A stretch of 64,000 nucleotides of DNA from an uncultured Oceanococcus sp. (GCA_964629015.1 CAZVMN010000007.1:86590-150589); one strand, 5' to 3'; positions 40,183 through 54,744 are shown, counted from the stretch's first letter. Program-made: numbers and translations. Notes: a model not told the origin generated them from the sequence alone.

Positions 40183-42462
40183 GTGGAGGCTTGTAATCGC
40201 ATGACAGAGCTCCAGCCGATGAAACAGCGCAAACACACCTTCTGCCGCATCTGCGAAGCCAGCTGCGGACTGGAAGCCGAGCTTGAGGATGGTCGTATCG
40301 TTGAGTTGCGACCCAATCGCGCGCACATGGGCACCGATGGTTTTGCCTGCATGAAAGGTTTGAACCAGCACAAAATGTATGACTCGCCCGATCGGCTGCG
40401 CTATCCGCTGAAACGTGTCGGCCAGCATTTTGAGCGCATCAGCTGGGCGCAGGCCTATGCCGAGATTGGTGCCAAGGTCAAAGCCCTGCGCCAACGCAGC
40501 GCACGCTCCTTGTCGATGTACGTGGGCACAGCCGCCGGTTTCAGCATCTTGCATCCGATCTTTGCCGAGGGCTTCATGCAGGGGCTGGGTTCACCCAATA
40601 TTTTTTCCTCATCGACCCAGGATTGCGCCAACCGCTTTGCCGCGGCCAATGAAATTTACGGCTTTCCCTTTTGTCAGCCGTTTGTCGATCTCGACCATGT
40701 GAAATTCATGCTCATCGTCGGGACCAATCCGGTGGTCTCCAAGTGGACCTTTTTGCAGGTTGCCCATCCGGTCAAACGACTCAAGGAAGTCCTCAGCCGC
40801 GGGGCGCAAATCGTCGTGGTCGACCCGCGGTATACCGAAACTGCCAAGGTCGCCAGCGACCATCAGTTCATTCGTCCCAACACGGATGTGTTCTTCTTCC
40901 TGTCCTTCTTGCATGAACTGTTCGCCCAAGGCGGTGTGGATCGCACACATGCGGCCAAGTACATGAATGGCGTGGACGAATTGCAGGCGCTATCCGCAGC
41001 TTGGCCGGCCAGCCGCACAGCGGATTTGACCGGCATAGACGAACCCCGCCTGAAACAGCTGGTTGGCGACTACATCGTGGCTGGTGCATCGGCTATCGTG
41101 ACCGGGACCGGTCTGGGCATGGGCAAACACGGCACCCTGGCCCAGTGGTTGGCCGAAGCGATCAACGCGCTGAGCGGAAACCTCGATCGGCAGGGCGGCA
41201 CGCTTGTTGGCAAAGGCCTGTTCGATTTCGCCGCCTATGCGAAAAAAGAGAAACTGTTCGAGCGCCACGAGCGCTCCCGTATCGGTGATTTCTTCGAGCT
41301 CAACGGCGGCTTCCCGGGCGGCATTCTGGCCGACGAGATTTTGCAGCCTGGCGAGGATCGCATCCGCGCGCTGTTCGTCACTGGCGGCAATCCGCTGCTG
41401 ACCATGCCCAATGCGGCGCGGCTGCGCGAAGCCTTGAGCGAATTGGAGCTGTTGGTTGTGACCGACATCTACCTCAATGAAACCGCTAGCCTCGCGCACT
41501 ATGTGCTGCCGGCGACCTCACCGCTGGAACGCCCCGACCTGCCTTTCGTATTCCCCTTGTTTCTGGGCATGCAATCCAAGCCTTATGTCGCCGCCACGGA
41601 CGCCATTGTCGAACCCGATGGCGAGCAAAAGGATGAAGCGACCATCTACACCGAGCTGGCGCGCGCCTGTGGGGTGAGCCTTTTCAAGGCCAAACCCCTG
41701 CAGTGGATGCTGCAAGCCTTGCTGGCCGCCAACACACCATGGCGGCGCGGCAAGCCGCGCGCCCTGCCGGTGCGCCTGATCCTGGACCTGATCCTGCGAC
41801 TGAGCAAAACCGGGCGCTTTCGCGATCTGGCAGCCAAGCCCAACGGCATGGATTGGAAGGGCGGTGCCACGCCGGGCACTTATCTGGGTCAGCGTGTGGT
41901 GACCGATGACGGCAAACTGCACCTGGCCCCCGAACGTCTGATGCAACAAACCGCAAGACTGGACGACATTTTCCATGCGGAAATGGCCAGCTATCAGGGC
42001 GGTGAGATGCGTCTGATCAGCAAACGCATGCATAGCACCCACAACTCCTGGACGCAAAACATTGAGGAGTTGACCAACGGGCGTATGGGCCAGACCAATT
42101 ATCTGTACATGCACCCCGAGGATGCCGCAGCCAAAGGCTTGGGTGAGTACGATGCGGCCGACATCCAGTCAAAAACGGCAACCATCCGGCTGCCCGTCAA
42201 ACTGCTCGACACCTTGCTACCGGGGACTGTGGCGGTGCCGCATGGCTGGGGTCATCAGCATGCCCGTGGACTCGGTGTTGCGAGCAAGCTGGCCGGGGCC
42301 AACGTCAATCTGCTGGCCGCTGATGGAATCGACGCGGTGGAACCGGTATCCGGCATGGCCCATCTCAGCGGCATTCCGGTCAGTATCGAAAAGGCCGCCG
42401 GGCCGATTGATCCGGCCAGTTGGTCGGGCATTGCGCCACAATCCGCAACGGCCTCTGCGTAA
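40183..42462 (+). CDS. cytoplasmic molybdopterin (bis-MGD) oxidoreductase family protein
   Basis: N-terminal Fe-S cluster motif CRICEASCG...CMKG, a candidate Mo-ligand region TQDCANRF, and a C-terminal molydopterin-dinucleotide-binding region. No Tat signal. The start may be one of the internal Met codons (about 40201). Confidence 0.82.
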   Translation: MEACNRMTELQPMKQRKHTFCRICEASCGLEAELEDGRIVELRPNRAHMGTDGFACMKGLNQHKMYDSPDRLRYPLKRVGQHFERISWAQAYAEIGAKVKALRQRSARSLSMYVGTAAGFSILHPIFAEGFMQGLGSPNIFSSSTQDCANRFAAANEIYGFPFCQPFVDLDHVKFMLIVGTNPVVSKWTFLQVAHPVKRLKEVLSRGAQIVVVDPRYTETAKVASDHQFIRPNTDVFFFLSFLHELFAQGGVDRTHAAKYMNGVDELQALSAAWPASRTADLTGIDEPRLKQLVGDYIVAGASAIVTGTGLGMGKHGTLAQWLAEAINALSGNLDRQGGTLVGKGLFDFAAYAKKEKLFERHERSRIGDFFELNGGFPGGILADEILQPGEDRIRALFVTGGNPLLTMPNAARLREALSELELLVVTDIYLNETASLAHYVLPATSPLERPDLPFVFPLFLGMQSKPYVAATDAIVEPDGEQKDEATIYTELARACGVSLFKAKPLQWMLQALLAANTPWRRGKPRALPVRLILDLILRLSKTGRFRDLAAKPNGMDWKGGATPGTYLGQRVVTDDGKLHLAPERLMQQTARLDDIFHAEMASYQGGEMRLISKRMHSTHNSWTQNIEELTNGRMGQTNYLYMHPEDAAAKGLGEYDAADIQSKTATIRLPVKLLDTLLPGTVAVPHGWGHQHARGLGVASKLAGANVNLLAADGIDAVEPVSGMAHLSGIPVSIEKAAGPIDPASWSGIAPQSATASA

Positions 42463-43752
42463 TCAGGCGCCGCTGGTAAACACCGGCCAAGTGTCGACGA
42501 TCGCACCATCGTCGTACACCGCGATGTCGCCGAACTGCAGGAATACGAACTCGGACTGACGCGGACGCAGGAACACCATATCGCCGACGCCCAATTCAAC
42601 CTGCTCGGAACCGTTGAGCAGATCCTGATTGGTCGAATGTCCCCAGATGGCATTGCGCTGCAAACCGGGCGGCGAAACGCTGTCGGCCAGCCAGTAGCCG
42701 CCGTAGATGTAAAAGGCTTGTGCGGTGTTGGGGTCCCACGCACGCATCACCCCGGTCATGGATTCCAGACCGGGCAAATCTGTCCGGTTCAGTGCCTTGA
42801 GCACCGGGGTGGCAATAAAGCTGGCCGGTTGATTGTCAGCCAGGGCCGGCACATCAAAGTCGGACGGCATAACCAGACCCGACCCCATGGCCAACTCATT
42901 GCAGGGCGCGCTGTTGTCGTACATGGAAAACGTCGAGCTGCCGCCCGCATTGAGCGTGTAAGCCGACGGATCATAGGCGCTGCCCATGCGCTCACGCAGC
43001 ACATCCAATGCAGTGCTGTAGCGCTGCATGGCCATATCCAGCGCTTTGCGCGGCCCACCCAGAAACCCTGGCATTTTGGACGCATGGGCTTCGTAGCCCA
43101 TGAAGCCGGCAAAGCTCAGCGAAGGTGACTGCTCCACCACCCGCAGCACCTCAGCCACGTCCGAAGCTTCGCGCAAACCACCGCGGTGCAAGCCCACATC
43201 CAACTCCAAGTTGACGCGCATCGGACCAAGCCCCTCAGCCTGACGCGCCGTGGCAAGCTCGGCATATTCACGCGCACGCTGGGGCGTGTCGATCAGCCAT
43301 TCGATCTGCGAGGCCGGATCAAAACCCGGGTTCCGGTGCCTGTCGAAGAATCGCTGCGCGGCGCCCACCGGCATGGGTTTGCCGAGCAGGACGCGCGCAT
43401 CGCTCATCTGCGCACCGACCAGATTGAGAAACGGCTGATGGAACACCATCAGGCGATCCGTGCCGGTGGCGTCGCGCACCGCCTGGATTAACGGCAGGCT
43501 GGGCAAAGATTTGGCGACGATGCGGTAGGCCATCTGCGACGGCAGATGGGCCTTGAGTTGGCCAATGTTGTGCTGCAGGCGTGCCCTGTCGATCACCAAT
43601 GTGGGTCGAAACAACCCCGCCTGAGCCAGTGCGTTCTGCACCGCGCGAAAGTATTCATCGTGCCGCCCGCTTTGTGCGGTGGGACGTAGGGCGACGGCTG
43701 CAGCGGGCGCGGCGATCGCAGCCCCAAGCAATAAACGGCGACGGCGATTCAT
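42463..43752 (-). CDS. Tat-exported PLP enzyme of the alanine-racemase-fold/DSD1 (D-serine dehydratase / D-threonine aldolase-like) family
   Basis: Twin-arginine leader MNRRRRLLLGAAIAAPAAAVA. Ala_racemase_N-like barrel with a candidate PLP Lys in YRIVAKSLPS, followed by a C-terminal beta domain. Confidence 0.68.
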   Translation of the reverse strand: MNRRRRLLLGAAIAAPAAAVALRPTAQSGRHDEYFRAVQNALAQAGLFRPTLVIDRARLQHNIGQLKAHLPSQMAYRIVAKSLPSLPLIQAVRDATGTDRLMVFHQPFLNLVGAQMSDARVLLGKPMPVGAAQRFFDRHRNPGFDPASQIEWLIDTPQRAREYAELATARQAEGLGPMRVNLELDVGLHRGGLREASDVAEVLRVVEQSPSLSFAGFMGYEAHASKMPGFLGGPRKALDMAMQRYSTALDVLRERMGSAYDPSAYTLNAGGSSTFSMYDNSAPCNELAMGSGLVMPSDFDVPALADNQPASFIATPVLKALNRTDLPGLESMTGVMRAWDPNTAQAFYIYGGYWLADSVSPPGLQRNAIWGHSTNQDLLNGSEQVELGVGDMVFLRPRQSEFVFLQFGDIAVYDDGAIVDTWPVFTSGA

Positions 43753-43761
43753 GACAACTCC

Positions 43762-45177
43762 TCAGGCGACGCCGAACAGCTGGCGCAAATATGGATTGAG
43801 CATGCGCCCCTGCGGGTCCAAGGCTTCACGCACGGTCAAAAACTCCTGCCAGCGCGGATAACGCGCCGCCAGTTGCTGCGGTGTCAGCGTGTGCATCTTG
43901 CCCCAGTGCGGACGCCCTTCGTATGGCTGGTAGATCGGTTCCAGGCTGGCAAAGTACGGCAGCGGATCTTCCTTGTGATAACGATGCACCGCGATGGAAC
44001 CGGACACCGCGTGGCCCTGAAAGGGCGACAACATGGCGTCATCACCGCGCACCACCCGGATTTCGATGGGGAAAAACTCTTCGTGATGTTGCGATTCAAT
44101 GCGTTCGCGCACCTGTTTGAACGCCGGCATCAGGGCCTCGGATGGCAAGTGATATTCCATCTCGTTGAAACGCACTTCGCGGCTGGATGGGAAGATGCGA
44201 TACCACAGATCGACCGCCTCTTCCGGCTCGAAGTCGCCGGTGGCCATGTCGAGCAGGCGACGCCGCATCCCCGGCCACCATGACAACCAGTCGCGCAGCT
44301 GTTTGATCTGCATCACCGCATCGTTGTCCTGCTCGGGTCCGCGCGGCTGCACATCCTCGTCAGTAGGGTTGATGGCAATCGCCATCGCTTGGCTACAGAA
44401 CGGGATGTAATACATCTCGAAACTGTGATTTTCCCGAACCAATTGATCAAAGTTCTCGATGAGCTCGTCAATCGGTGCCAGCCAGCTGCGCCGTTTGAGC
44501 TTGTGCGTCGGCACGTTCTGCAAGGTCATCTCGGTGATCACGCCGAGACTGCCGAGGGACACTTTGGCCGCGCTAAACACCTCAGGGTTGGTCTGTGCGC
44601 TGCAATCCAGCACCTCGCCATTGGGCGTGACCAAGCGCAGGCTTTTTACATAGCTATGCAGCGCACCCAGCTGAGCGCCGGTGCCATGAGTTGCGGTGCC
44701 GATGGCGCCGGCCAGGGTTTGCGAGTCGATGTCCGGCATATTGGCCAGCGCCTGGCCCACCTCATCCAGCATCGGCCCCAGATCACCCAGGCGCGTGCCA
44801 GCGCCGAGCGTCGCGGTCATGGCGGTGCTGTCATGCGACTTCAAGCCGGCGAAATTGCGCAAGGACAGCAATGTGCCATCGGTGGGCACCAACGCGGTGA
44901 ACGAATGCCCAGCCCCAACCGGGCGGATCGGTGCCGGTGTCTGGCGCAGAATGTCGGCCAGTTCACCTTCATCTTTGGGCACCAGACGCTGCACCGGCAC
45001 ACCGAATTGGTAGCCCGACCAGTTCTGCCAGGGGATCAAACGTTTGCCATCGGGCCCGGTGGTGGGTGCTGGCGCCTGCGGCATGTTGGACGCACCGTGG
45101 TCATCGCAACCGGCCAAGCCGACGCCGCTGGCTGCCGCCACCGACGACAGCAACATCTCACGTCGATTCATCGCCAT
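43762..45177 (-). CDS. Tat-exported lipoprotein flavoenzyme, VAO/PCMH fold with aldonolactone oxidase (ALO/GULO) C-terminal domain
   Basis: Tat motif NRREMLL plus lipobox LAGC. FAD_binding_4 region with PVGAGHSF (position of the flavinylated His in GULO-type enzymes). GRPHWGKMH is an ALO-family signature. Confidence 0.8.
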   Translation of the reverse strand: MAMNRREMLLSSVAAASGVGLAGCDDHGASNMPQAPAPTTGPDGKRLIPWQNWSGYQFGVPVQRLVPKDEGELADILRQTPAPIRPVGAGHSFTALVPTDGTLLSLRNFAGLKSHDSTAMTATLGAGTRLGDLGPMLDEVGQALANMPDIDSQTLAGAIGTATHGTGAQLGALHSYVKSLRLVTPNGEVLDCSAQTNPEVFSAAKVSLGSLGVITEMTLQNVPTHKLKRRSWLAPIDELIENFDQLVRENHSFEMYYIPFCSQAMAIAINPTDEDVQPRGPEQDNDAVMQIKQLRDWLSWWPGMRRRLLDMATGDFEPEEAVDLWYRIFPSSREVRFNEMEYHLPSEALMPAFKQVRERIESQHHEEFFPIEIRVVRGDDAMLSPFQGHAVSGSIAVHRYHKEDPLPYFASLEPIYQPYEGRPHWGKMHTLTPQQLAARYPRWQEFLTVREALDPQGRMLNPYLRQLFGVA

Positions 45178-45178
45178 A

Positions 45179-45541
45179 TCACTGCCCCGCCATGTAGTTG
45201 ATCAGAGCAATGAAATCGTCTTCGCTGCAATCCATGCAAGCACCCAGCGGCGGCATGCCGTTGTAGCCATTGATGGTGTGTTCAACGAGCACGTCCATGC
45301 CCTGCTTCATGCGCGGTGCCCAGGCGGCCTGATCACCAGCCATCGGCGCGCCGGTGCGCGATGAGGCATGACAGGCCCGGCAGGTTTGATCGTAAACACG
45401 GGCCAGCGCCGGATCCGCCGGCGGTGGTGGCGGCGTGACGGAAGCCTGCGTTGTCGATGCCGGTGTCGCTGAATCCCCGCAAGCGCTCAACATCAGCGCC
45501 AAAGCGCCAAACACCGGCGCCATCCCCAAGCCACTTTTCAT
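45179..45541 (-). CDS. lipoprotein monohaem c-type cytochrome (cytochrome c5-like)
   Basis: Lipobox MLSAC, a Pro-rich linker, the haem site CRACH and a distal Met in GYNGMPPLG. Start trimmed to MKSGLGM (the ORF track extends to 45601). 1-nt gap to the flavoprotein gene. Confidence 0.8.
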   Translation of the reverse strand: MKSGLGMAPVFGALALMLSACGDSATPASTTQASVTPPPPPADPALARVYDQTCRACHASSRTGAPMAGDQAAWAPRMKQGMDVLVEHTINGYNGMPPLGACMDCSEDDFIALINYMAGQ

Positions 45542-45604
45542 GCTGTGTGTCCTCACTGTGTCGCCGTCATGGACTGGCAACAGTTCGATACTCTTTCGCA
45601 AATT

Positions 45605-45621
45605 ACATACTCAGGGTATGT
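45605..45621. promoter_or_regulatory. inverted repeat acatac-N5-gtatgt overlapping the TetR start codon (candidate operator)
   Basis: Lies in the roughly 75-nt divergent region between the cytochrome c gene and the TetR gene. Short, so it may be a chance match. Confidence 0.3.
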
Positions 45622-46298
45622 TTATGTCAACACAACACCGGATTCGCCGCTCGTCCATGGCACCACAAGCCGCCCATAAAACATCCACTCGCACCGCGCG
45701 TCGGCGCCCGCAAGCGCGCGGCATCGCGACGCGCGAGCGCCTGTTGAGTGCGGCCGAGGCGCTATTCATCGATGAAGGCTATGACGATGTCAGCATCGAC
45801 CGCATCGTTGCCGCTGCCGCCGTCACCAAGGGCGCGTTCTATCACCACTTTGGCGACAAGCTGGCGATCTTCCGGGAAGTTTTCGAGGCCATCGATCAAG
45901 AAATGGCCGATTTGGTGCGCGAGCGCGCGATGACAGCCGAAACACCTCTCGGCATTGTTCAACGCGGCGTGCGCACCTGTTTTGAGCTGTGCACCCAACC
46001 GCGCTACGGGCGTTTTGTCTACATCACCGCACCGCCGGTGATTGGTTGGACCGGTTGGTATGAAACGGACAACGCCATCTCGCGCGAGATCGTGATGGCG
46101 GGCTTGCAAAACGCGGTTGAGCTGGGGGAGCTCGCGCCGTTGTCGGTGTCATCACTCACCACCCTGTTGATGGGGCTGGTTCTGCAAGGCGCGATTGCGG
46201 TCGTGACTTCAGACACGCCCGATCAGACGGCGGCGGAGTTGGCAGCCGAGGCGGACCATCTTTTGCTTGCACTTGCAGCACAGGCCAAATCGGATTGA
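45618..46298 (+). CDS. TetR/AcrR family transcriptional regulator
   Basis: HTH region RERLLSAAEALFIDEGYDDVSIDRIVAAAAVTKGAFYHHFGDK. Start trimmed to MFMSTQH; the upstream part of the 287-aa ORF overlaps the cytochrome gene region. Confidence 0.85.
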   Translation: MFMSTQHRIRRSSMAPQAAHKTSTRTARRRPQARGIATRERLLSAAEALFIDEGYDDVSIDRIVAAAAVTKGAFYHHFGDKLAIFREVFEAIDQEMADLVRERAMTAETPLGIVQRGVRTCFELCTQPRYGRFVYITAPPVIGWTGWYETDNAISREIVMAGLQNAVELGELAPLSVSSLTTLLMGLVLQGAIAVVTSDTPDQTAAELAAEADHLLLALAAQAKSD

Positions 46299-46332
46299 TG
46301 GCTGTGCACACCTCAAGGAACAGGGGATTGAG

Positions 46333-48858
46333 ATGCGTTTGATTTTTCTATTGCTGCCACTGGCGCTCTGGGCAACGGCGTCCAGCGCCCAAGATGATGA
46401 TCTGGACTTTCTGTTTTCCGATACCGAGATCACGCCCACACCTCGCCCCTCGCCATCGCCTTCCGAGGCAAGCTCAATAACGACCGACGATGAGCCGGTC
46501 ACAACCATCCCGGTCAGCGAATTGCGCTCGCCGGAGCCGACGCGCGCCCCCGCACCCCCGAGCCGGGTGCTGGAGGAAATCGTGGTCACCGCGCAAAAAC
46601 GCGAACAGTCACTGCAGGACGTGCCCATTTCGGTCACCGCGGTGGACGGCTCGTTCATTGAAATGACCAACGCCGCTGACCTGGCTGATGTCTCGCTGTA
46701 TGTGCCCAATGTGCGTGTGGACGCCGATGACCTGGGTTCACCGCAACTGTTCATTCGCGGCTTTGGCACCAATGCCTTCAACCCCAGCTTCGAAAGTTCG
46801 GTCGGCTTTGTGCAAGACGAAATCTACTTCGGCCGCCCCGGCTACTTCACCGAGTCCATGTTCGATGTGGATCGGGTCGAAGTGCTGCGCGGGCCGCAGG
46901 GCACCCTGTTCGGCAAAAACACCATCGCCGGCGTGTTCAACGTCAGCACGCGCAATCCCAGCGAGCTGTTTGAAGCGGATACGCGTTACACCTATGGCAG
47001 CAACAATGCGCACCGCCTGGAGTTTGGCGTCGGCGGCATGTTTGCGGATTGGGGCGGCGTGCGCATTTCCGGTCTCTATCGCGACGAAGACGGCGAGTTG
47101 TACAACCAATTCCTGGATCGTGACGAAGAGGAACTGACCCAGCAAGCCGGGCGCATCAAGCTGATGCTCCTACCCAGCGACACCCTGAGCGTCAACCTCA
47201 CCGCGCAGATTTCCGACACCGAAGCCGCATTCTGGCCCTATCAGCTGATGGAGTTGGATTCCGGCAGCTTCAACTTCCTGCGCAGCTACGACCCGGACGT
47301 CGAAGACGATCCCTACGATTTCCGCAACTCGGCCGACACCCCCGGCTTCATCGAAAAAGGCTCGGAAACCGTCTCGGCAATCACCCAATGGGACGTGGGC
47401 GATCTGTGGGGTTTGCAGGACAGCGCCTTCACATTGGTGCTGGCCGGCTCGAAATTCCATATCGATCAGCTCAACGAATTGGACGTCTCCCCAGCCGACA
47501 TTGGCCGACTGGAGAATTACGAAGACCATGAGCAACTGTCCGGCGAACTGCGTTTCTCCGCCCGCGCCGATAGCCTGTTTGGCTTTGGTGGCGATGTCGA
47601 TCTGGTTGCCGGTGCATTCTGGTACGACTCGCAGTACACCTTGCTCGCGCGTATCCACGCCGGCTCCGACATCGGCTCCTTTGTCCTCACCGAAGACGCC
47701 TTGCAACTGGTCAGCGGCTCGGGCGGCTTCGGCCTGATTGGCGGCCTGCCCGGCATTCCACTGCTCGGTAACATTCTCGGCCCAATCATCGGCGAGGATT
47801 TCTACCAGCTGGATTATGACCAGGCGGTGACCTCGCTGGCGTTCTTCGGGCAGATGACCTGGTATCTGACCGAGCGCATTGCGCTCACGCCGGGGGTACG
47901 TATCAACACCGAGGATAAAACTATTGACTCCGCGGGTTCACGAAGCTGCACCCTGGATCAACTGGGTCTGCCGGTCTGCGTGATGGCCACGCTCCTGGAA
48001 GCCGAGAATTACGAGCGCAACGGTCTCAAACGTAGCGAGTCGGATGTTTCTCCCAAATTCGTCATCCAGTACTTTGGCGACAACGACATCAACTGGTTTG
48101 CCTCCTACGCGCGCGGTTACAAAAGCGGCGGGTTCAACTCCCTGTCCTACACCGGTGAAGATCTGGAGTTCGAGCCAGAGAAAGCCGAAACCTTTGAGTT
48201 GGGCGTCAAAGCCACCTTGTTTGATCGCACCCTGCGCCTCAACGCCACGCTGTACGACACGCGTTTCGACAATCTTCAGGTTTTGGCTTTCAACAGCGTG
48301 TTTTTCGATGTCGGCAACGCGGCGTCCGCCCGCTCACGCGGCCTGGAAGCCGATTTCATGTGGTTCACCCCGTTCGAGCCGCTGCAAATCATGGGCTCGA
48401 TCGGCTTGCTCGAAGCCAAATACGACAGCTACGACGGCGCCCCCGCCCCGATTCGCGACAGCAACGGTGATCTGCAGATCGACGCCACCCAGGACCTCAG
48501 TGGCCAGCGCATTGCTTTTGCGCCTCGTACCACGGCAACTCTCACGCCGATGCTGACCTTCCCGCTGTTTGGCCTGACCGGTCGTTTCGCGGTGGATGTT
48601 CTGCATCAAGGTGATCAATTCACCGACACCGACCTTGACCCCAACAGTCACGTGGATGCGTACACGCTGTACGCCGCGCGCGTGTCGATTTCCAACTACA
48701 CAGAGAGCTGGTCAGTCACCTTGGGGGGCAGCAACCTGACCGACAAACGTGTTCTCAATCAGGTCACCGACGCAACCTTCTTCCCCGGCAGCTACTTTGC
48801 CCAGCAGGCCAGCGGACGTCAGTTGTTTGCGACCTTCAATTTGCGCTTCGGCGATTGA
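46333..48858 (+). CDS. TonB-dependent receptor
   Basis: Signal peptide MRLIFLLLPLALWATASSA, a Pro/Ser/Thr-rich linker, plug motifs (EEIVVTAQKREQSLQDVPISVTAV, VEVLRGPQGTLFGKNT) and a long beta-barrel. Start trimmed from the ORF-track 46267. Confidence 0.9.
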   Translation: MRLIFLLLPLALWATASSAQDDDLDFLFSDTEITPTPRPSPSPSEASSITTDDEPVTTIPVSELRSPEPTRAPAPPSRVLEEIVVTAQKREQSLQDVPISVTAVDGSFIEMTNAADLADVSLYVPNVRVDADDLGSPQLFIRGFGTNAFNPSFESSVGFVQDEIYFGRPGYFTESMFDVDRVEVLRGPQGTLFGKNTIAGVFNVSTRNPSELFEADTRYTYGSNNAHRLEFGVGGMFADWGGVRISGLYRDEDGELYNQFLDRDEEELTQQAGRIKLMLLPSDTLSVNLTAQISDTEAAFWPYQLMELDSGSFNFLRSYDPDVEDDPYDFRNSADTPGFIEKGSETVSAITQWDVGDLWGLQDSAFTLVLAGSKFHIDQLNELDVSPADIGRLENYEDHEQLSGELRFSARADSLFGFGGDVDLVAGAFWYDSQYTLLARIHAGSDIGSFVLTEDALQLVSGSGGFGLIGGLPGIPLLGNILGPIIGEDFYQLDYDQAVTSLAFFGQMTWYLTERIALTPGVRINTEDKTIDSAGSRSCTLDQLGLPVCVMATLLEAENYERNGLKRSESDVSPKFVIQYFGDNDINWFASYARGYKSGGFNSLSYTGEDLEFEPEKAETFELGVKATLFDRTLRLNATLYDTRFDNLQVLAFNSVFFDVGNAASARSRGLEADFMWFTPFEPLQIMGSIGLLEAKYDSYDGAPAPIRDSNGDLQIDATQDLSGQRIAFAPRTTATLTPMLTFPLFGLTGRFAVDVLHQGDQFTDTDLDPNSHVDAYTLYAARVSISNYTESWSVTLGGSNLTDKRVLNQVTDATFFPGSYFAQQASGRQLFATFNLRFGD

Positions 48859-48957
48859 GCACTATGGATTCGTAAATTCAGCTACAGCCCGGGACAGTCC
48901 TGGGGCCCCGGCTTAAGATGAGCGCACCAAATATTCCTAAAACAACTGGGGGAACAC

Positions 48958-51405
48958 ATGCGCGGCATACTCAGCCTCGTTCTGCTTGTCGTCTTGAGCG
49001 CGTGTCAAAGTGGCGGGCGCGATTCAGTCAATTCGCTGCCATCATCCAATGACGCGCTGTCGGCTGAACTGCGTCGCAGCGACTACGGCATTGTTCACGT
49101 CAAAGCCGATGACTTCGCCAGCCTCGGTTATGGCTACGCTTATGCCTTCGCCGAAGACAACCTGTGCCTGATTGCCGACAGCTACGTCACAGTCAATGGT
49201 GAACGCAGCAAGTATTTTGGCCCGGACAACAGCTGGACCTTCACCGGCAACAGCACCACCAACAACAATCTGAATTCGGATTTCTTCTTCAAGCTGATCA
49301 TCGCCGAACAGCGCATCGAAAAGCTGCTCGACTTGCCGCCGCCGCAGGGCCCATTGCCGCAAGTGCGAGAGCTGGTGCGTGGCTATGTGGCCGGCTACAA
49401 CCGCTACCTACAGGATACCGGCGTTGACAATCTGCCGGACCCGACCTGCCGCGGTGAACCCTGGGTCCGGGAAATTCGCGAGATTGACGTCTACCGGCGT
49501 TTCTATCAGCTCGCCATGCTGGCGTCGTCGGGCGTCGCCATCAATGGCATCGGCAGCGCCCAACCCCCGACCGCCGGACTGATCCCCAGTGTGCTGCCCT
49601 CGGCTGAGGACATCGCCGCACAACTCGGCGCGCGCTGGGAAGGCATCCAGATTGGCAGCAATGCCATCGCCCTTGGCAGCGAGGCGACCGACACCGGCGG
49701 TGGCATGATTTTGGGCAACCCACATTTCCCCTGGGACGGCACAGAGCGCTTTCATCAGGCCCATCTCACGATCCCGGGCAAGCTGGATGTCACCGGTGTA
49801 AGCCTGTTCGGCGTGCCATTGATCTTGATCGGCTACAACAAAGACCTAGCCTGGAGCCACACGGTGTCCAGCGCCTGGCGTTTCACCCCATACCAGTTGA
49901 CCCTGGTCCCCGGCGCACCAACCACCTATCTGGTTGATGGCGTTCCGGAAGCCATGACGCCGTGGGATCTGGAGGTGGAAAGCCTGCAAAGCGACGGCAG
50001 CGTCACGAACGTCTCACGCACGCTGTACACCACCCGTTGGGGACCGGTTTTCAACGAAATCCTTGGCTTGCCGCTGTTCCCATGGCTGCCGGTTCAGGCC
50101 TACGCGCTGGCCGATGCCAACGCCGCGAACTTCCGCTACGTGAATCATTTCCTGGAAACCAACCAGGCGAGTTCCAGCCGCGAGTTGCTGGAGATCCTCA
50201 AGCGCAACCAGGGCATACCGTGGGTGAATACCTTGGCCAGCGACCGCCACGGCGAAGCGCTCTACGCGGATATTTCCGTCACGCCGAACGTCCCCGATGA
50301 CATGGCCCTGAGCTGCGCGGGTGTGCTCGGACTGGTAACCCACCCCTTGCTCGGCTTACCCGTGCTCGACGGTTCGCGCAGCAGCTGTGCGTGGCGCAAT
50401 GATGAGGATGCGATCCAAGCCGGCACGCTGGGGCCATCGAACATGCCGTATCTGCTGCGCAACGATTACGTCACCAATTCCAACGACAGCCATTGGCTGT
50501 CCAGCCCACAGCAGCCACTGGAAGGTTTCGCCCGCATCATTGGCGACGAACAACGTGCGCGACGCATGCGCACCCGCTCCGGCTTGGTCATGCTGGAGGA
50601 GCATCTTTATGGCGACAACGGCCACACGTTCAGTCGTCAGCAGATGCAGGATTTGTTGTACAACGACCGTCAGCACGCCGCCCATCTGTGGATTGATGAC
50701 CTGATCCCGTTCTGCCGCCTGCTCCCCATTATGGTCGGGCTAGGTGGACCGGTGACCACCGGCGAGGCCTGCGATGTGCTGGAGGCCTGGGACCGCAGCG
50801 ATCGCCTCGACAGTGCGGGCGCCGTGCTGTTCCGACGCTTCGCCGAGAACCTCTACATCGCCAACATTCCCTCGGGCACCTCGGCATCGCAGCTCGAATT
50901 CCTGGATGTCTGGACCCAGCCCTTTGATGTCAACGACCCGGTCCACACGCCGAGTGGTCTGAATGTGCTCAACCCGCACGTGGAGCTTGCTCTGGCCAGC
51001 GCCATCAGTGACCTCAACGGTGCGGGCATGCCACTCGATGCGACCCTGCGACAAGCCCAGACAGAGCGGCGCGGTGAGGAGAAAATCCCCATTCATGGCG
51101 GCCCTGGCGCCATGGGCGTCTTCAATGCGATCACCAACCCGTGGGTGGACGGTGAGGGCTATATCGACGTCGTGCATGGCTCCAGTTTTATTCAGGTGGT
51201 CAGCTTTGACGGCGACGACTGTCCCGATGCGCGCACCATCCTGACGTACTCGCAGAGCTCCGACCCAAGCTCCCCGCACTTCGCGGATCAGACACGCCTT
51301 TACTCAGAAAGTGGTTGGGTCGAGGCCCAGTTCTGTGAGAGCGAGATCCGTGGCAGGGTTACGCACAGCAAGACCTTGAGTGAAGGCACAGCGAGCCTGA
51401 ACTAA
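48958..51405 (+). CDS. lipoprotein Ntn-hydrolase of the penicillin/acyl-homoserine-lactone acylase family (S45; PvdQ/QuiP-like)
   Basis: Lipobox VLSAC. An IGSNAIALG motif provides the autoproteolytic Gly-Ser site with an N-terminal nucleophile Ser. NPHFPW motif. 815 aa. Confidence 0.85.
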   Translation: MRGILSLVLLVVLSACQSGGRDSVNSLPSSNDALSAELRRSDYGIVHVKADDFASLGYGYAYAFAEDNLCLIADSYVTVNGERSKYFGPDNSWTFTGNSTTNNNLNSDFFFKLIIAEQRIEKLLDLPPPQGPLPQVRELVRGYVAGYNRYLQDTGVDNLPDPTCRGEPWVREIREIDVYRRFYQLAMLASSGVAINGIGSAQPPTAGLIPSVLPSAEDIAAQLGARWEGIQIGSNAIALGSEATDTGGGMILGNPHFPWDGTERFHQAHLTIPGKLDVTGVSLFGVPLILIGYNKDLAWSHTVSSAWRFTPYQLTLVPGAPTTYLVDGVPEAMTPWDLEVESLQSDGSVTNVSRTLYTTRWGPVFNEILGLPLFPWLPVQAYALADANAANFRYVNHFLETNQASSSRELLEILKRNQGIPWVNTLASDRHGEALYADISVTPNVPDDMALSCAGVLGLVTHPLLGLPVLDGSRSSCAWRNDEDAIQAGTLGPSNMPYLLRNDYVTNSNDSHWLSSPQQPLEGFARIIGDEQRARRMRTRSGLVMLEEHLYGDNGHTFSRQQMQDLLYNDRQHAAHLWIDDLIPFCRLLPIMVGLGGPVTTGEACDVLEAWDRSDRLDSAGAVLFRRFAENLYIANIPSGTSASQLEFLDVWTQPFDVNDPVHTPSGLNVLNPHVELALASAISDLNGAGMPLDATLRQAQTERRGEEKIPIHGGPGAMGVFNAITNPWVDGEGYIDVVHGSSFIQVVSFDGDDCPDARTILTYSQSSDPSSPHFADQTRLYSESGWVEAQFCESEIRGRVTHSKTLSEGTASLN

Positions 51406-51426
51406 GCCAGAGTGTGGCGTAGCAAC

Positions 51427-51457
51427 GGGTGGTGCCGTGACATACACGGCGCCACCC
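51427..51457. terminator. bidirectional hairpin between convergent acylase and gcvPB genes
   Basis: gggtggtgccgtg-acata-cacggcgccaccc (one G-U pair). A second short cccgag...ctcggg stem follows. Confidence 0.55.
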
Positions 51458-51479
51458 GAGCTCTTTCACCTCGGGCGAC

Positions 51480-52934
51480 TTAGCCCTGCCAGCGCAAATC
51501 CAGCTGCCGCGCCGCGCGCACGTCATCCAGGCGCCGCACCGGCTGGGTATAGGGCGCACCCTTGACCTTGTCGATGTCGGCCTTGGCCTCGTCCCAGATC
51601 GCGACCATGGCATCGACGAAAGCATCCAGTGTGGCCTGATCTTCCGACTCAGTCGGCTCGATCAGCAGGCATTCGGGTACCAGCAGCGGAAAGTAGATGG
51701 TTGGGGCGTGATAGCCGTAATCGAGCAGACGCTTGGCCATATCGGTGGCGGTGAACTCGAGTTCCTGCTTCTGCTTTTTGAGCGTCACGATGAACTCGTG
51801 GGTCGCTCGGCGTCCGTCAAAGGCCAGATCGAAACCTTTGTCTTTCAGGCGCGCCATCAGGTAATTGGCATTCAGGGTGGCGAACTCGGCCACCCGGGTC
51901 ATGCCATCCGGCCCCAGCATCAACGCATAGACATAGGCCCGCAGCAGTACCCCGGCGTTGCCCATGAAGGCAGACAGTCGCCCGATGCTTTGTGGCAGAT
52001 CGTTTTCATCCAGCCAGCGGTACTGATCGCCATCTTTGCCCACCACCGGAATCGGCATGAATGGGCGCAGGCGCTCGGACACACCGACCGCACCAGAGCC
52101 CGGCCCGCCGCCGCCATGCGGGGTGGAGAAGGTTTTGTGCAGGTTCATGTGGATGACATCAAAACCCATATCGCCCGGACGCACCTTGCCGAGAATCGCG
52201 TTGAGATTGGCGCCGTCGTAGTACAGCAGGCCGCCCGCCTCGTGAACCTTCTTGGCGATGATTTCGATCTTGCGTTCGAACACGCCCAGAGTCGACGGAT
52301 TGGTCAGCATGATGCCAGCGGTCTTTGGACCCAATGCCGCTTCCAGAGCTTCGAGATCCACGTCGCCGTTCTTGTCGGTGGGGATCTCGCGCACCGTGCA
52401 GCCACACTGGATCGCGGTGGCCGGATTGGTGCCATGGGCGGCATCCGGCACCAGAATCTCGGTGCGCTCGGTATCACCGCGCGACAGGTGGTAGGCGCGG
52501 ATCATGGCGACGCCAGCGAACTCCCCCTGAGCGCCGGCCATCGGGGTCAGCGACACGCCTTTCATGCCGGTGACTGATTTGAGAATCTCTTGCAAATCGT
52601 ACATACAGGCCAGATAGCCCTGACTGTGATCCGGCGTGGCGAGCGGATGGCGGGCCAGAAACTCCGGCAACATGGCCAGGGTGTTGCAGGCCCGCGGGTT
52701 GTATTTCATCGTGCAGCTACCCAGTGGGTAGAAATGCGTGTCGATGGAGAAGTTCTTCTGCGACAGGCGGGTGTAATGACGCACCACCTGCATCTCCGAG
52801 ACTTCCGGCAGACCGGGAGTGTCCTGACGCAGGAATTCTGCCGGAATGGCGGTTGGCGCAGCCGCCTCCACGGGCGCCTGAGCAGCGGCACGGCGGCCCG
52901 GCGAGGACAGTTCAAAAATCAGCGCTTCGCTCAT
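51480..52934 (-). CDS. gcvPB: glycine dehydrogenase (aminomethyl-transferring) subunit 2
   Basis: PLP-binding region [16 protein letters not shown]. Start trimmed to [10 protein letters not shown] at 52934, 2 nt after the gcvPA stop (the ORF track extends to 53012). Confidence 0.95.
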
Positions 52935-52936
52935 GA

Positions 52937-54298: not shown

Positions 54299-54351
54299 AT
54301 CTGCGTCTCGCTAAAACCGGCCCCGAATCCAGACGAACTGGGGCGGTGAAA

Positions 54352-54744
54352 TTACTGTTCGGACTTGAGGAAGTCGGCGTAGCCGTCGGCGCTCATCAGG
54401 CCATCCAGCTCACCGGCATCGGCGGGCTGCAATTTGAAAATCCAGCCTTCGCCGTAAGGGTCATCGTTGAGCGTTTCCGGCGCATCGGCCAGGACGTCAT
54501 TGCCGCCGATCACGTCACCAGCCACCGGTGCGTAGACATCCGAGGCAGCCTTGACCGACTCAACCACAGCGGCGGCATCACCCGTGCCAAAGCTTTGGCC
54601 CGCTTCCGGGGTTTCCACAAACACCAGATCGCCCAGGGCCTCCTGCGCATGGTCGGTGATGCCGATGGTCAGACTGCCGTCGGCCTCGACGCGAATCCAT
54701 TCATGGGATTTGGTGTACTTCAGTTCTGCGGGAATCTGGCTCAT
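54352..54744 (-). CDS. gcvH: glycine cleavage system H protein
   Basis: YTKSHEWI and the lipoyl-Lys motif [12 protein letters not shown]. 130 aa. Confidence 0.95.

What the first reader, a model, noticed from the sequence alone, without database searches (positions are those of the whole stretch)
42463..51405. Divergent TetR-centred supra-locus: TonB-dependent receptor plus lipoprotein AHL/penicillin-type acylase opposite the flavocytochrome/PLP operon; possible complete periplasmic pathway for N-acylated amino-lactone compounds
Seen: one TetR gene (45618-46298) sits at a divergent node. To its right, on the same strand, are a TonB-dependent receptor (starting 35 nt after the TetR stop) and a lipoprotein Ntn acylase with the GS autoprocessing site (IGSNAIALG). 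To its left is the cytochrome c / ALO-flavoprotein / PLP operon. Apart from the regulator and the outer-membrane receptor, every product is predicted to act in the periplasm. Established: acylases of this family (PvdQ, QuiP, AiiD type) cleave acyl-homoserine lactones into a fatty acid and homoserine lactone, or trim acylated siderophore precursors. Inference (speculative): receptor uptake, then deacylation, then PLP-dependent and lactone-oxidoreductase-type chemistry on the released head group. Together these would form a self-contained scavenging route for acyl-homoserine lactones or similar acyl-amino-lactones. The fate of released homoserine lactone is, to my knowledge, poorly defined enzymatically.
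Basis: inference. Interest (0 to 1): 0.7.

Follow-up and report, generated by a model that had tools for sequence, protein, structure and literature searches.

The report
Sphingosine-type operon with TonB receptor
The three "flavocytochrome/PLP" genes are a marine counterpart of the Pseudomonas sphBCD operon, which is linked to breakdown of sphingosine-like lipids; here they are paired with their own TetR repressor and outer-membrane receptor, and the neighbouring acylase sits beside them only in this one genus, so an acyl-homoserine-lactone pathway is unlikely.

Summary

The left arm was not recognised for what it is. Cytochrome c, ALO-type flavoprotein and PLP enzyme are collinear, full-length homologues of Pseudomonas aeruginosa SphB, SphC and SphD (55%, 48% and 44% identity). 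In P. aeruginosa that operon is induced by sphingosine and is needed to metabolise sphingoid bases.

Across 80 genomes:
- The cytochrome/flavoprotein pair is nearly universal (cytochrome c in 77 of 79 informative loci).
- The PLP gene follows in 54 of 72 informative loci.
- An orthologous TonB-dependent receptor lies divergently next to the trio in 25 loci (Nevskiales and Spongiibacteraceae).
- The TetR occurs only in the closest relatives, always with one conserved palindrome, ACATAC-N5-GTATGT (window 45605-45621).

The acylase (MacQ/PvdQ-like, nucleophile Ser234) is adjacent only in the same genus (87% identity). Orthologues at 66-77% identity sit elsewhere, often among fatty-acid beta-oxidation genes.

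The real unit is therefore TetR + receptor + sphBCD-like trio. The acyl-homoserine-lactone idea is not supported. The general logic of uptake, deacylation, then oxidation and PLP cleavage does parallel the Pseudomonas SphR regulon (SphA, CerN, SphBCD).

Verdict: a new variant of a known but biochemically unresolved system. Moderate interest.

The parts
42463..43752 (-). sphD-like gene: Tat-signal, DSD1-type (fold-type III) PLP enzyme; predicted aldolase or dehydratase acting on a D-beta-hydroxy-alpha-amino acid
   Evidence: Ala_racemase_N, E 5e-16. 44% identity over 408 aa to P. aeruginosa SphD, E 6e-117. The AlphaFold model's best fold matches are beta-hydroxyaspartate aldolase 6qkb, D-threonine aldolase 4v15 and D-threo-3-hydroxyaspartate dehydratase 3wqf. 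R5, R6 and K81 are invariant in 24 homologues. Follows the flavoprotein gene in 54 of 72 informative loci.
43762..45177 (-). sphC-like gene: Tat-exported lipoprotein flavoprotein of the VAO/ALO family (TIGR01679), with a GAGHSF motif
   Evidence: FAD_binding_4 + ALO. TIGR01679 524.8 bits against a 292 cut-off. 48% identity over 428 aa to P. aeruginosa SphC, E 6e-140. R5, R6 and H91 are invariant and C24 nearly invariant in 23 homologues. Best solved relatives are alditol/glycerol oxidase 8ot8 and AldO 2vfr.
45179..45541 (-). sphB-like gene: lipoprotein mono-haem cytochrome c, presumed electron acceptor of the flavoprotein
   Evidence: Cytochrome_CBB3, E 8e-14. CRACH motif and lipobox LSAC. 55% identity over 99 aa to P. 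aeruginosa SphB, E 6e-40. Present upstream of the flavoprotein gene in 77 of 79 informative loci.
45605..45621 (.). Candidate TetR operator: perfect palindrome ACATAC-TCAGG-GTATGT in the divergent intergenic region, overlapping the TetR start codon
   Evidence: Inverted repeat. It is the only match in the 64-kb window even with 2 mismatches allowed. Found once in each of the 8 TetR-bearing related loci and in none of the other loci held at that point, while the flanking intergenic DNA has diverged.
45618..46298 (+). TetR-family repressor gene (alternative start at 45624), first gene of the TetR-receptor transcription unit
   Evidence: TetR_N + TetR_C_41. Closest structures are Rv0078/EthR2, 5icj and 5wm9. 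Orthologues occur only in the closest relatives, L001, L002, L003, L005, L008 and L081-83. In L087 the TetR gene overlaps the receptor gene by 4 nt.
46333..48858 (+). TonB-dependent outer-membrane receptor gene, co-conserved with the sphBCD-like trio
   Evidence: Plug + TonB_dep_Rec_b-barrel. Below every siderophore, haem or B12 receptor cut-off. Orthologues at 50-83% identity lie divergently 0.5-1.3 kb from the flavoprotein gene start (3.0 kb in L008) in 25 loci of Nevskiales and Spongiibacteraceae/Litorivivens, 20 of 63 loci with enough upstream sequence.
48958..51405 (+). Lipoprotein Ntn-hydrolase acylase gene (MacQ/PvdQ-like). Adjacent to the unit, but its membership is doubtful
   Evidence: Penicil_amidase, E 1.6e-117. 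The PvdQ equivalog model scores 620.9 bits against a 950 cut-off. Best solved relative is MacQ 5c9i, E 2.9e-155, with Ser234 aligned to beta-chain residue 1 (PMC5566955). Adjacent to the receptor only in relatives at 87% identity and elsewhere in orthologues at 66-77% identity. No operator copy or terminator lies in the 99-nt spacer.

Best explanation
The core feature is a TetR-controlled, sphBCD-type periplasmic catabolic module with its own TonB-dependent outer-membrane receptor.

Proposed mechanism:
- TetR binds the palindrome at 45605-45621. From there it represses both divergent transcription units: tetR-receptor to the right and cytochrome c-flavoprotein-PLP enzyme to the left.
- An amphipathic 2-amino-1,3-diol enters through the receptor. 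The most likely candidate is a sphingoid base or a related long-chain amino alcohol.
- The Tat-exported SphC-like flavoprotein oxidises the C1 hydroxymethyl group and passes the electrons to the SphB-like lipoprotein cytochrome c, and so to the respiratory chain.
- The product is a D-configured beta-hydroxy-alpha-amino acid. The Tat-exported SphD-like PLP enzyme cleaves it to glycine plus a fatty aldehyde, or dehydrates it to a 2-oxo acid plus ammonia.

Shown here: homology and collinearity with P. aeruginosa SphBCD, the export signals, co-conservation of the receptor, and co-occurrence of TetR with the operator.

Inferred: the substrate, the order of the reactions, the products and repression by TetR.

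The acylase is most likely a genus-specific neighbour that releases fatty acids from N-acyl compounds. A role in feeding this module, as a ceramidase analogue, is possible but unproven.
For: - BLASTP against the P. aeruginosa sph locus (L169, which carries an annotated sphR next door): SphB 55%, SphC 48%, SphD 44% identity, all full-length and in the same gene order.
- The literature describes PA5328-5326 as a Cytochrome_CBB3-like, D-arabinono-1,4-lactone-oxidase-like and Ala-racemase-N-like trio (PMC5150637). It is induced by sphingosine through SphR (PMC3900636) and needed for removal of sphingosine, sphinganine and phytosphingosine. SphC is Tat-exported and SphB is a Sec lipoprotein (PMC11893366, PMC6085387).
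- The same two-step chemistry, C1 oxidation followed by aldolase cleavage to glycine plus a long-chain aldehyde, was proposed in PMC3900636.
- All 80 related loci are 40-51% identical to PaSphC.
- The trio is paired with a different outer-membrane uptake protein in different lineages. It sits with the SphA Phenol_MetA_deg barrel in Pseudomonas and with a FadL/Toluene_X channel plus an AraC regulator in Marinomonas. In Nevskiales and Spongiibacteraceae the partner is this TonB-dependent receptor. Two of these three are families of channels for hydrophobic compounds.
- The operator palindrome is present in 8 of 8 TetR-bearing loci and absent from the others.
- The PLP enzyme's fold and sequence are closest to the D-threonine / beta-hydroxyaspartate aldolase and dehydratase family.
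- The flavoprotein is closest over its full length to alditol oxidases, which oxidise terminal CH2OH groups.
Against: [quoted passage not shown] The product is unknown and sphD was dispensable in the growth assay (PMC11893366).
- Identity of 44-55% does not guarantee the same substrate.
- No SphR, SphA or CerN homologue is present in the window.
- TonB-dependent receptors are not the usual route for very hydrophobic molecules.
- No promoter-like site was detected, and TetR binding is untested.
- The C-terminal domain of the PLP enzyme model has low confidence (residues 342-392), so the metal-binding residues of the aldolase family could not be checked.
Confidence: 0.55

Rival explanations
1. 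The locus is a self-contained scavenging route for acyl-homoserine lactones or similar acyl-amino-lactones: receptor uptake, deacylation by the acylase, then PLP and lactone-oxidoreductase chemistry on homoserine lactone.
For: The acylase belongs to the MacQ/PvdQ group, whose members hydrolyse acyl-homoserine lactones (PMC5566955). All products carry export signals. The acylase lies 99 nt downstream of the receptor on the same strand with no recognisable terminator between them. The arrangement is kept in same-genus relatives.
Against: - The acylase is absent from all informative sphBCD-type loci outside the genus.
- Acylase orthologues at 66-77% identity sit in other contexts, as do 23 more distant metagenome homologues at 43-59% identity on loci of 8 kb or more.
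- The trio is homologous to sphBCD.
- TIGR01678, the sugar-1,4-lactone oxidase model, is not passed.
- Homoserine lactone lacks an oxidisable hydroxyl and is an L-amino compound without a beta-hydroxyl (inference from chemistry).
- The ScbR-type lactone-receptor hit of the TetR covers only the HTH domain and is below the cut-off.
Confidence: 0.05
2. The receptor and trio act on a hydrophilic amino sugar or amino polyol rather than a sphingoid base. One example: glucosamine or an amino-alditol is oxidised to a 2-amino-2-deoxy-aldonate, which the PLP enzyme then deaminates to a 2-keto-3-deoxy acid.
For: [quoted passage not shown] The flavoprotein's closest solved relatives are alditol/glycerol oxidases. 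TonB-dependent receptors typically import hydrophilic solutes (own knowledge).
Against: The only experimental data for this operon family point to sphingoid bases (PMC3900636, PMC11893366). Other lineages pair the trio with channels for hydrophobic compounds. No sugar kinase, KDG-pathway gene or inner-membrane sugar transporter is co-conserved with the trio.
Confidence: 0.2
3. A full ceramide-type route in this genus. The Ntn acylase acts as a non-orthologous ceramidase, the functional counterpart of CerN: it releases the sphingoid base and a fatty acid from N-acyl sphingoid bases brought in by the receptor. The base then goes through the SphC/B/D-like steps, and the glycine produced feeds the adjacent glycine-cleavage operon.
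For: The P. aeruginosa SphR regulon combines an outer-membrane channel, SphBCD and an N-deacylase, CerN (PMC3900636, PMC5150637). The acylase is an N-acyl amidase with a long acyl pocket in its relatives (PMC5566955). Its orthologues often sit among fatty-acid beta-oxidation genes. The Ntn-hydrolase superfamily includes ceramidases in animals (PMC9140057). gcvT-H-PA-PB lies directly to the right. The arrangement is kept within the genus, where sister genomes even carry a second acylase.
Against: The adjacency is confined to one genus. No operator copy lies upstream of the acylase, and the receptor-acylase spacer is not conserved between species. No penicillin-acylase-family enzyme acting on ceramide turned up in one literature search. 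The gcv adjacency is also genus-specific.
Confidence: 0.2

Closest known systems
Pseudomonas aeruginosa sphBCD operon and SphR regulon (PA5328-PA5326, sphA PA5325, sphR PA5324, cerN PA0845)
   Same: Three collinear genes: lipoprotein cytochrome c, Tat-exported ALO-type flavoprotein, DSD1-type PLP enzyme. Identities of 55%, 48% and 44% over the full length. In both cases the trio is associated with a regulator and an outer-membrane uptake protein, and an N-deacylase belongs to the same regulon or neighbourhood.
   Different: The regulator is a TetR with its own palindromic operator, not the AraC-type SphR. The outer-membrane protein is a TonB-dependent receptor, not the SphA Phenol_MetA_deg barrel. 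The neighbouring deacylase is an Ntn acylase, not a neutral ceramidase, and it is not co-conserved. The flavoprotein here carries a lipobox after its Tat signal, whereas the signal peptide reported for PA5327 has none (PMC6085387). Host-derived sphingosine is not an obvious substrate for a marine free-living bacterium.
MacQ (Acidovorax sp. MR-S7) and PvdQ (P. aeruginosa) acyl-homoserine-lactone acylases, Ntn-hydrolase / penicillin-amidase family
   Same: Full-length similarity (MacQ precursor E 2.9e-155, PvdQ E 5.7e-138). Gly-Ser autoprocessing site with Ser234 as the nucleophile. Exported.
   Different: It scores below the PvdQ equivalog cut-off (620.9 against 950). No pyoverdine genes are nearby. 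It has a lipoprotein signal. Its substrate is untested.
p-Cresol methylhydroxylase-type flavocytochromes c (own knowledge, not tested here)
   Same: A periplasmic VAO/PCMH-superfamily flavoprotein that hands electrons to a dedicated small c-type cytochrome encoded next to it.
   Different: The flavoprotein belongs to a different subfamily (ALO/alditol-oxidase-like, TIGR01679), and a PLP enzyme is co-encoded.
OngC D-glucosaminate deaminase of the oxidative chitin pathway (PMC9537276)
   Same: [quoted passage not shown] That pathway also uses TonB-dependent receptors.
   Different: OngC is cytoplasmic and sits in a different gene cluster.
Alditol oxidases (AldO 2vfr; thermostable glycerol oxidase 8ot8, PMC10771423)
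   Same: The closest solved relatives of the flavoprotein over its full length (E 6e-43 and 3e-35). The GxGHSF motif is shared; own knowledge identifies this histidine as the covalent FAD attachment site in alditol oxidase.
   Different: Those enzymes are soluble cytoplasmic oxidases that use O2. This one is Tat-exported and paired with a cytochrome c.

Membership tests
sphBCD-type operon | Three adjacent same-strand genes in the order cytochrome c, ALO/FAD_binding_4 flavoprotein, Ala_racemase_N (DSD1) PLP enzyme | tested here: met
   The same Pfam triplet is reported for PA5328-PA5326 in PMC5150637.
sphBCD-type operon | Full-length sequence homology of each product to P. aeruginosa SphB, SphC and SphD | tested here: met
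   55% over 99 aa (E 6e-40), 48% over 428 aa (E 6e-140) and 44% over 408 aa (E 6e-117). This is higher than the 44% and 42% reported for the C. crescentus candidates in PMC11893366.
sphBCD-type operon | SphC exported by Tat; SphB a signal-peptide lipoprotein | tested here: met
   Twin-arginine motif NRREMLL in the flavoprotein, with R5 and R6 invariant in homologues. Lipobox LSAC in the cytochrome. This rests on reading the sequence; no predictor was run.
sphBCD-type operon | Control by the AraC-type regulator SphR and association with the SphA outer-membrane barrel | tested here: not met
   No SphR or SphA homologue was found in the window by tblastn at E 1e-6. A TetR and a TonB-dependent receptor occupy those roles.
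sphBCD-type operon | Induction by sphingoid bases and a requirement for their metabolism | not testable with these tools
   Needs expression and growth experiments.
PvdQ bifunctional acylase (NF051460 equivalog) | Score above the curated cut-off | tested here: not met
   620.9 bits against a 950 cut-off.
Penicillin-amidase / Ntn-hydrolase acylases (PF01804) | Full-length domain match, with a Gly-Ser processing site whose serine is the N-terminal nucleophile of the beta chain | tested here: met
   394.7 bits covering model positions 2-674 of 675. Ser234 aligns with residue 1 of the MacQ and PvdQ beta chains.
Acyl-homoserine-lactone acylase (function) | Hydrolysis of acyl-homoserine lactones | not testable with these tools
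   Only homology to MacQ and PvdQ is available.
TonB-dependent siderophore receptor (TIGR01783) | Score above the curated cut-off | tested here: not met
   125.2 bits against a 223.5 cut-off, and every specific receptor model is far below its cut-off. The generic Plug and barrel domains are met.
Sugar 1,4-lactone oxidase (TIGR01678) | Score above the curated cut-off | tested here: not met
   197.9 bits against a 396.8 cut-off. The bacterial FAD-linked oxidoreductase model TIGR01679 is passed (524.8 against 292.25).
ScbR-type gamma-butyrolactone receptor TetR (NF041196) | Score above the cut-off and a match to the ligand-binding domain | tested here: not met
   65.8 bits against 150, and only model positions 1-81 (the HTH) are matched.
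DSD1 / D-threonine aldolase family (fold-type III PLP) | Fold and PLP-binding lysine | tested here: met
   The top fold matches are 6qkb, 4v15, 7yqa and 3wqf over about 405 columns. K81 is invariant; in a weak, non-significant HMM stretch it lines up with a lysine of 6qkb. BhcC equivalog membership is not met (37 bits against 690).
DSD1 / D-threonine aldolase family (fold-type III PLP) | C-terminal metal-binding residues | tested here: inconclusive
   The C-terminal domain is poorly modelled (pLDDT below 50 for residues 342-392). An invariant GHSxNQ motif is present but could not be aligned with confidence.

The most novel reading that the evidence does not exclude
In this genus the locus encodes a complete periplasmic route for N-acyl sphingoid bases (ceramide-like lipids) assembled from non-orthologous parts.

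- A TonB-dependent receptor imports the lipid, in place of SphA.
- A MacQ/PvdQ-type Ntn acylase acts as the ceramidase, in place of CerN.
- SphC/SphB oxidise C1 of the released base to give a D-beta-hydroxy amino acid.
- SphD cleaves that to glycine, which feeds the adjacent glycine-cleavage operon, and a fatty aldehyde.
- The whole unit is under a lipid-sensing TetR.

If true, this would give the first biochemical assignment to SphBCD and reveal a marine sink for sphingolipids.
Probability: 0.15. Interest if true: 0.65.

Novelty: new variant of a known kind. Interest (0 to 1): 0.42.

Why it matters
sphBCD is known only from Pseudomonas genetics. Its substrate, its product and even whether it acts directly on sphingosine remain open (PMC11893366).

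This analysis adds four things:
- The same trio is widespread in marine and soil Proteobacteria (Nevskiales, Spongiibacteraceae, Microbulbifer, Marinomonas, Parvibaculaceae).
- It recruits a different outer-membrane importer and a different regulator in different lineages.
- Here it comes with a defined candidate operator, which gives a compact and tractable system for finding the true inducer and substrate.
- The stereochemistry is consistent. Oxidising C1 of a serine-derived 2-amino-1,3-diol gives a D-beta-hydroxy amino acid, which is exactly what DSD1-type enzymes use. That makes the proposed two-step pathway directly testable.

The result also corrects a plausible-looking but name-driven link to acyl-homoserine-lactone turnover.

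Tried and rejected
- **Other co-conserved genes.** I looked for more genes conserved around the trio by all-against-all clustering of ORFs from 80 loci. Beyond the trio and the receptor there was only lineage-specific synteny: glycerol kinase and an alpha/beta hydrolase in Nevskiales, and housekeeping genes in Parvibaculaceae.
- **Gatekeeper residue.** I tried to use this residue of aldonolactone oxidoreductases to predict oxidase versus dehydrogenase behaviour. Pro148 aligns with Ala in both AldO and GLDH. The rule could not be verified from the data in hand, so I did not use it.
- **Promoters and terminators.** The scan found no sigma-70-like site and no convincing terminator between the receptor and the acylase. 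The spacer folds no better than shuffled sequence, z = 0.47.
- **First literature searches.** Searches for the trio under 'DSD1 / lactone oxidase / cytochrome c' and under 'flavocytochrome c' found nothing useful.
- **Siderophore link.** A siderophore role for the receptor and acylase was rejected. The receptor is co-conserved with sphBCD, not with iron genes, and only one acylase orthologue sits by haem/Feo genes.
- **SphR candidate.** The ORF at 56174-57367, at the position of an AraC-type gene in the sister genomes, was checked as a possible SphR. It is a FAD_binding_3 monooxygenase.
- **Protein-representative search.** Run with the PLP enzyme, it only gave the family size and carries no names.

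Full report

Yes. ORF listing, translation and profile searches confirm each gene.

- 42463-43752 (-): a PLP enzyme (Ala_racemase_N).
- 43762-45177 (-): a FAD_binding_4 + ALO flavoprotein. It passes NCBIfam TIGR01679 'bacterial FAD-linked oxidoreductase' at 524.8 bits against a 292 cut-off. It does not pass the sugar-1,4-lactone oxidase model TIGR01678.
- 45179-45541 (-): a mono-haem cytochrome c with a CRACH motif.
- 45618-46298 (+): a TetR.
- 46333-48858 (+): a TonB-dependent receptor, starting 34 nt after the TetR stop.
- 48958-51405 (+): a penicillin-amidase-family acylase.

- The PLP enzyme has a twin-arginine motif, MNRRRRLLL.
- The flavoprotein has a twin-arginine motif plus a lipobox, NRREMLL...LAGC.
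- The cytochrome and the acylase each carry the lipobox LSAC.
- The receptor has a classical signal peptide.

The twin arginines are invariant in 23 flavoprotein homologues and 24 PLP-enzyme homologues. The acylase motif GIQIG-S-NAIALG places Ser234 where the beta chains of MacQ and PvdQ begin. PDB entries 4YF9 and 5C9I are MacQ (PMC5566955).

The organism is close to Oceanococcus (Nevskiales). The nearest genome locus is an Oceanococcus MAG at 90% identity for the flavoprotein.

**2. What is the left arm?**

It is a homologue of the Pseudomonas aeruginosa sphBCD operon.

A PLSDB record labelled as a P. aeruginosa plasmid carries what is evidently the chromosomal segment pyrE ... cytochrome c5 - 'D-arabinono-1,4-lactone oxidase' - 'DSD1 family PLP-dependent enzyme' - transporter - sphR - argB. 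This is PA5328-PA5323. BLASTP of the window proteins against it gives:

| Window protein | P. aeruginosa protein | Identity | E-value |
|---|---|---|---|
| cytochrome c | SphB | 55% over 99 aa | 6e-40 |
| flavoprotein | SphC | 48% over 428 aa | 6e-140 |
| PLP enzyme | SphD | 44% over 408 aa | 6e-117 |

The gene order is the same.

The literature fits this assignment:
[quoted passage not shown] That is exactly the Pfam triplet found here (PMC5150637).
- LaBauve and Wargo showed that sphBCD, sphA (an outer-membrane protein) and cerN (neutral ceramidase) form the sphingosine-responsive SphR regulon. [quoted passage not shown]
- DiGianivittorio et al. showed that sphB and sphC are needed for removal of sphingosine, sphinganine and phytosphingosine. 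SphC is Tat-exported and SphB is a Sec lipoprotein. The product, and whether the action is direct, remain unknown (PMC11893366; PMC6085387).

**3. Independent support for the chemistry**

- The flavoprotein's best solved relatives over its whole length are alditol/glycerol oxidases: 8ot8 at E 6e-43 and AldO 2vfr at E 3e-35. Galactonolactone dehydrogenases match only in the FAD domain (8ot8 is identified in PMC10771423). From my own knowledge, alditol oxidases oxidise terminal CH2OH groups.
- A histidine, H91 in GAGHSF, is invariant in the homologues. From my own knowledge this is the covalent FAD attachment site in alditol oxidase; that was not tested here.
- The PLP enzyme is a remote member of the D-threonine aldolase / beta-hydroxyaspartate aldolase / D-threo-3-hydroxyaspartate dehydratase group, both by profile search and by fold search (model pLDDT 77; top matches 6qkb, 4v15, 7yqa, 3wqf).
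- Inference: a sphingoid base derives from L-serine, with the acyl chain replacing the carboxylate. Oxidising its C1 hydroxymethyl to a carboxylate therefore yields a D-configured beta-hydroxy-alpha-amino acid. That is the substrate class of this PLP family.
- Homoserine lactone fits neither enzyme. It has no hydroxyl to oxidise and no beta-hydroxyl, and it has the L configuration.

**4. Which genes belong together?**

A scan of one genome per species returned 80 loci encoding relatives of the flavoprotein. All are 40-51% identical to P. aeruginosa SphC. tblastn with the window proteins shows the following.

- Cytochrome c lies upstream in 77 of 79 informative loci.
- The PLP gene lies downstream in 54 of 72. 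The 18 sphBC-only loci are mostly Parvibaculum, the same situation reported for P. fluorescens WCS365 and C. crescentus.
- An orthologue of the receptor (50-83% identity) lies divergently 0.5-1.3 kb from the flavoprotein start in most of 25 loci (3.0 kb in L008). That is 20 of the 63 loci with at least 3.5 kb of upstream sequence. They span Nevskiales and Spongiibacteraceae/Litorivivens.
- The TetR orthologue occurs only in the closest relatives: L001, L002, L003, L005, L008 and the same-genus metagenome contigs L081-83.
- No flanking gene other than these is co-conserved.

Other lineages pair the trio with other uptake and regulatory genes.

- Pseudomonas has SphR with the SphA Phenol_MetA_deg barrel.
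- Marinomonas has an AraC regulator (25-27% identical to SphR), a FadL/Toluene_X outer-membrane channel and an EcKL-type kinase.
- Parvibaculaceae have a different TetR on the same strand.

So the unit 'regulator + outer-membrane importer + sphBC(D)' recurs, with non-orthologous replacement of the first two components.

**5. The operator**

The 76-nt divergent intergenic region contains a perfect palindrome, ACATAC-TCAGG-GTATGT, at 45605-45621. It overlaps the TetR start codon.

It is the only match in the window even when 2 mismatches are allowed. On its own that is not significant, since 47 of 100 shuffles give at least one match.

The conservation is what counts. The same palindrome, within a conserved AATTACATAC...GTATGTTT context, occurs exactly once in each of the 8 loci that carry the TetR orthologue, and in none of the other loci held at that point. 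The rest of the intergenic DNA has diverged, and TetR identity falls to 50-66%.

In L008 the palindrome lies in front of the cytochrome gene even though an extra gene separates it from the TetR. In L087 the TetR and receptor genes overlap by 4 nt, which indicates a single transcript. I infer that TetR represses both divergent units from this site.

The TetR's closest structures are Rv0078/EthR2. Its hit to the ScbR gamma-butyrolactone receptor is confined to the HTH and is below the cut-off, so it says nothing about a lactone ligand.

**6. The acylase**

It is MacQ/PvdQ-like (E 2.9e-155 and 5.7e-138) but below the PvdQ equivalog cut-off (620.9 bits against 950).

None of the flavoprotein loci outside the genus contains it within 10 kb. 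L001 and L002 end inside the receptor gene and are uninformative.

Starting instead from the acylase, its orthologues sit in these contexts:

| Identity | Locus | Context |
|---|---|---|
| 87% | L081-83 (same genus) | Whole arrangement kept, plus a second 1074-aa penicillin-amidase gene between the acylase and gcvPB that the window lacks |
| 77% | L084 | Between a haem-uptake cluster and feoAB |
| 74% | L170 | Next to ChsH2-like genes and MtrCAB-type cytochromes. Same Nevskiaceae assembly as the trio of L009, but on a different contig |
| 73% | L086 (Spongiibacter pelagi) | About 50 kb from that genome's trio |
| 72% | L171 | Among acyl-CoA dehydrogenases, hydratases, thiolases, an RND pump and an unrelated TonB-dependent receptor |
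| 71% | L172 | ChsH2-like gene, thiolase, alpha/beta hydrolase, acyl-CoA ligase |
| 66% | L089 | Thiolase, M20 peptidase, two unrelated TonB-dependent receptors, PQQ dehydrogenases |

None of the 23 more distant metagenome loci of 8 kb or more (43-59% identity) has the trio, the TetR or the receptor orthologue.

The recurring theme around this acylase is fatty-acyl catabolism, not any particular head group.

In the window, the 99-nt spacer after the receptor has no operator copy and no recognisable terminator. It is not conserved in the sister species, where the spacer is 262 nt. Co-transcription is therefore possible but unproven.

**7. Verdict on the interpretation**

Both are met as far as the acylase and the lactone chemistry are concerned.

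What survives:
- The divergent TetR node really does tie an outer-membrane receptor to the periplasmic trio.
- The abstract scheme of uptake, N-deacylation, then oxidation and PLP cleavage mirrors the Pseudomonas SphR regulon (SphA, CerN, SphBCD). The likely substrate class is ceramide or sphingoid base, not acyl-homoserine lactone.

Whether the acylase plays the CerN role in this genus is an attractive but weakly supported idea, at about 0.15-0.2. At the superfamily level, Ntn hydrolases do include ceramidases (PMC9140057).

A serious alternative for the trio and receptor is an amino-sugar or amino-polyol substrate. The precedent is OngC, a fold-type III PLP deaminase of D-glucosaminate in a pathway fed by TonB-dependent receptors (PMC9537276).

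**8. Novelty and score**

The operon family is known genetically from Pseudomonas but is biochemically unresolved.

New here:
- Its breadth across marine and soil Proteobacteria.
- The dedicated TonB-dependent receptor.
- The TetR and operator variant.
- The genus-specific acylase neighbour.

I rate it a new variant of a known kind, with interest about 0.4. It is not surprising enough to rank high. It is useful as a compact system for settling what SphBCD actually does.

Noticed in passing
L169:8298-8369 (P. aeruginosa NZ_CP070468.1, upstream of the annotated sphD start at L169:8370): The annotated start of P. aeruginosa sphD looks internal. The in-frame upstream sequence reads V-NRRKFMFAGLGAGALLAGAAAW from a GTG. 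That is a twin-arginine signal matching the invariant RR of the SphD-like family, so SphD is probably Tat-exported and periplasmic as well. The papers read here do not mention this.
   Followed up: partly
L081:12542-15766, L082:12542-15766 and L083:7670-10894, compared with window 51405-51480: Same-genus relatives carry a second, larger penicillin-amidase gene (1074 aa) between the acylase and gcvPB. The window has only 74 nt there. This spot looks like a variable insertion point for acylase genes.
   Followed up: no
L008:7637-9382 (-): In a Nevskiales MAG, an extra gene sits between the TetR gene and the conserved palindrome, so it probably belongs to the same regulon. It has a Tat-like signal (MISRRSLLGIGAIGAAG) and reads by eye like a class-V aminotransferase; no profile search was run on it.
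   Followed up: no
L071:5543-9322 (also L076 and L079, Marinomonas): Here the sphBCD-like trio is divergent from three genes. These are an AraC regulator (25-27% identical to SphR), a FadL/Toluene_X outer-membrane channel and an EcKL/APH-type kinase. The kinase suggests phosphorylation of the substrate or a product in that lineage.
   Followed up: partly
window 51480-55850 (-): The glycine-cleavage operon gcvT-H-PA-PB lies immediately right of the acylase, and glycine is the predicted SphD product. The adjacency is genus-specific. GcvPB is 99% identical to the sister genomes L081-83, while the neighbouring genes are 77-90% identical.
   Followed up: partly
L084:5750-14813: The acylase orthologue at 77% identity sits between a haem-uptake cluster (a PNPOx/DUF2470-domain protein, a TonB-dependent receptor, HmuY, a FecCD-type ABC transporter) and feoAB. 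This hints at an iron-related role for the acylase in that organism.
   Followed up: no
L024, L026, L028, L039-L041, L043, L044, L047, L049, L052, L055-L057, L059, L065, L067, L070: Eighteen of the 72 informative loci have the cytochrome and flavoprotein genes but no PLP gene (sphBC-only). Most are Parvibaculum. This echoes P. fluorescens WCS365 and C. crescentus, where deleting sphBC had little effect.
   Followed up: partly
window 37987-40032 (-): A 681-aa predicted lipoprotein with a Gly run straight after the lipobox (LMACGGGGGGGGAS) has no Pfam or NCBIfam match. It is conserved next to the molybdopterin oxidoreductase (40183-42462) in same-genus relatives.
   Followed up: no
L087:1820-4325; L011:4276-6873: In Nevskiales, a glycerol kinase gene and a lysophospholipase-like alpha/beta hydrolase gene (Hydrolase_4) repeatedly flank the receptor gene on the side away from the trio. 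This may be a lipid-catabolism neighbourhood.
   Followed up: no
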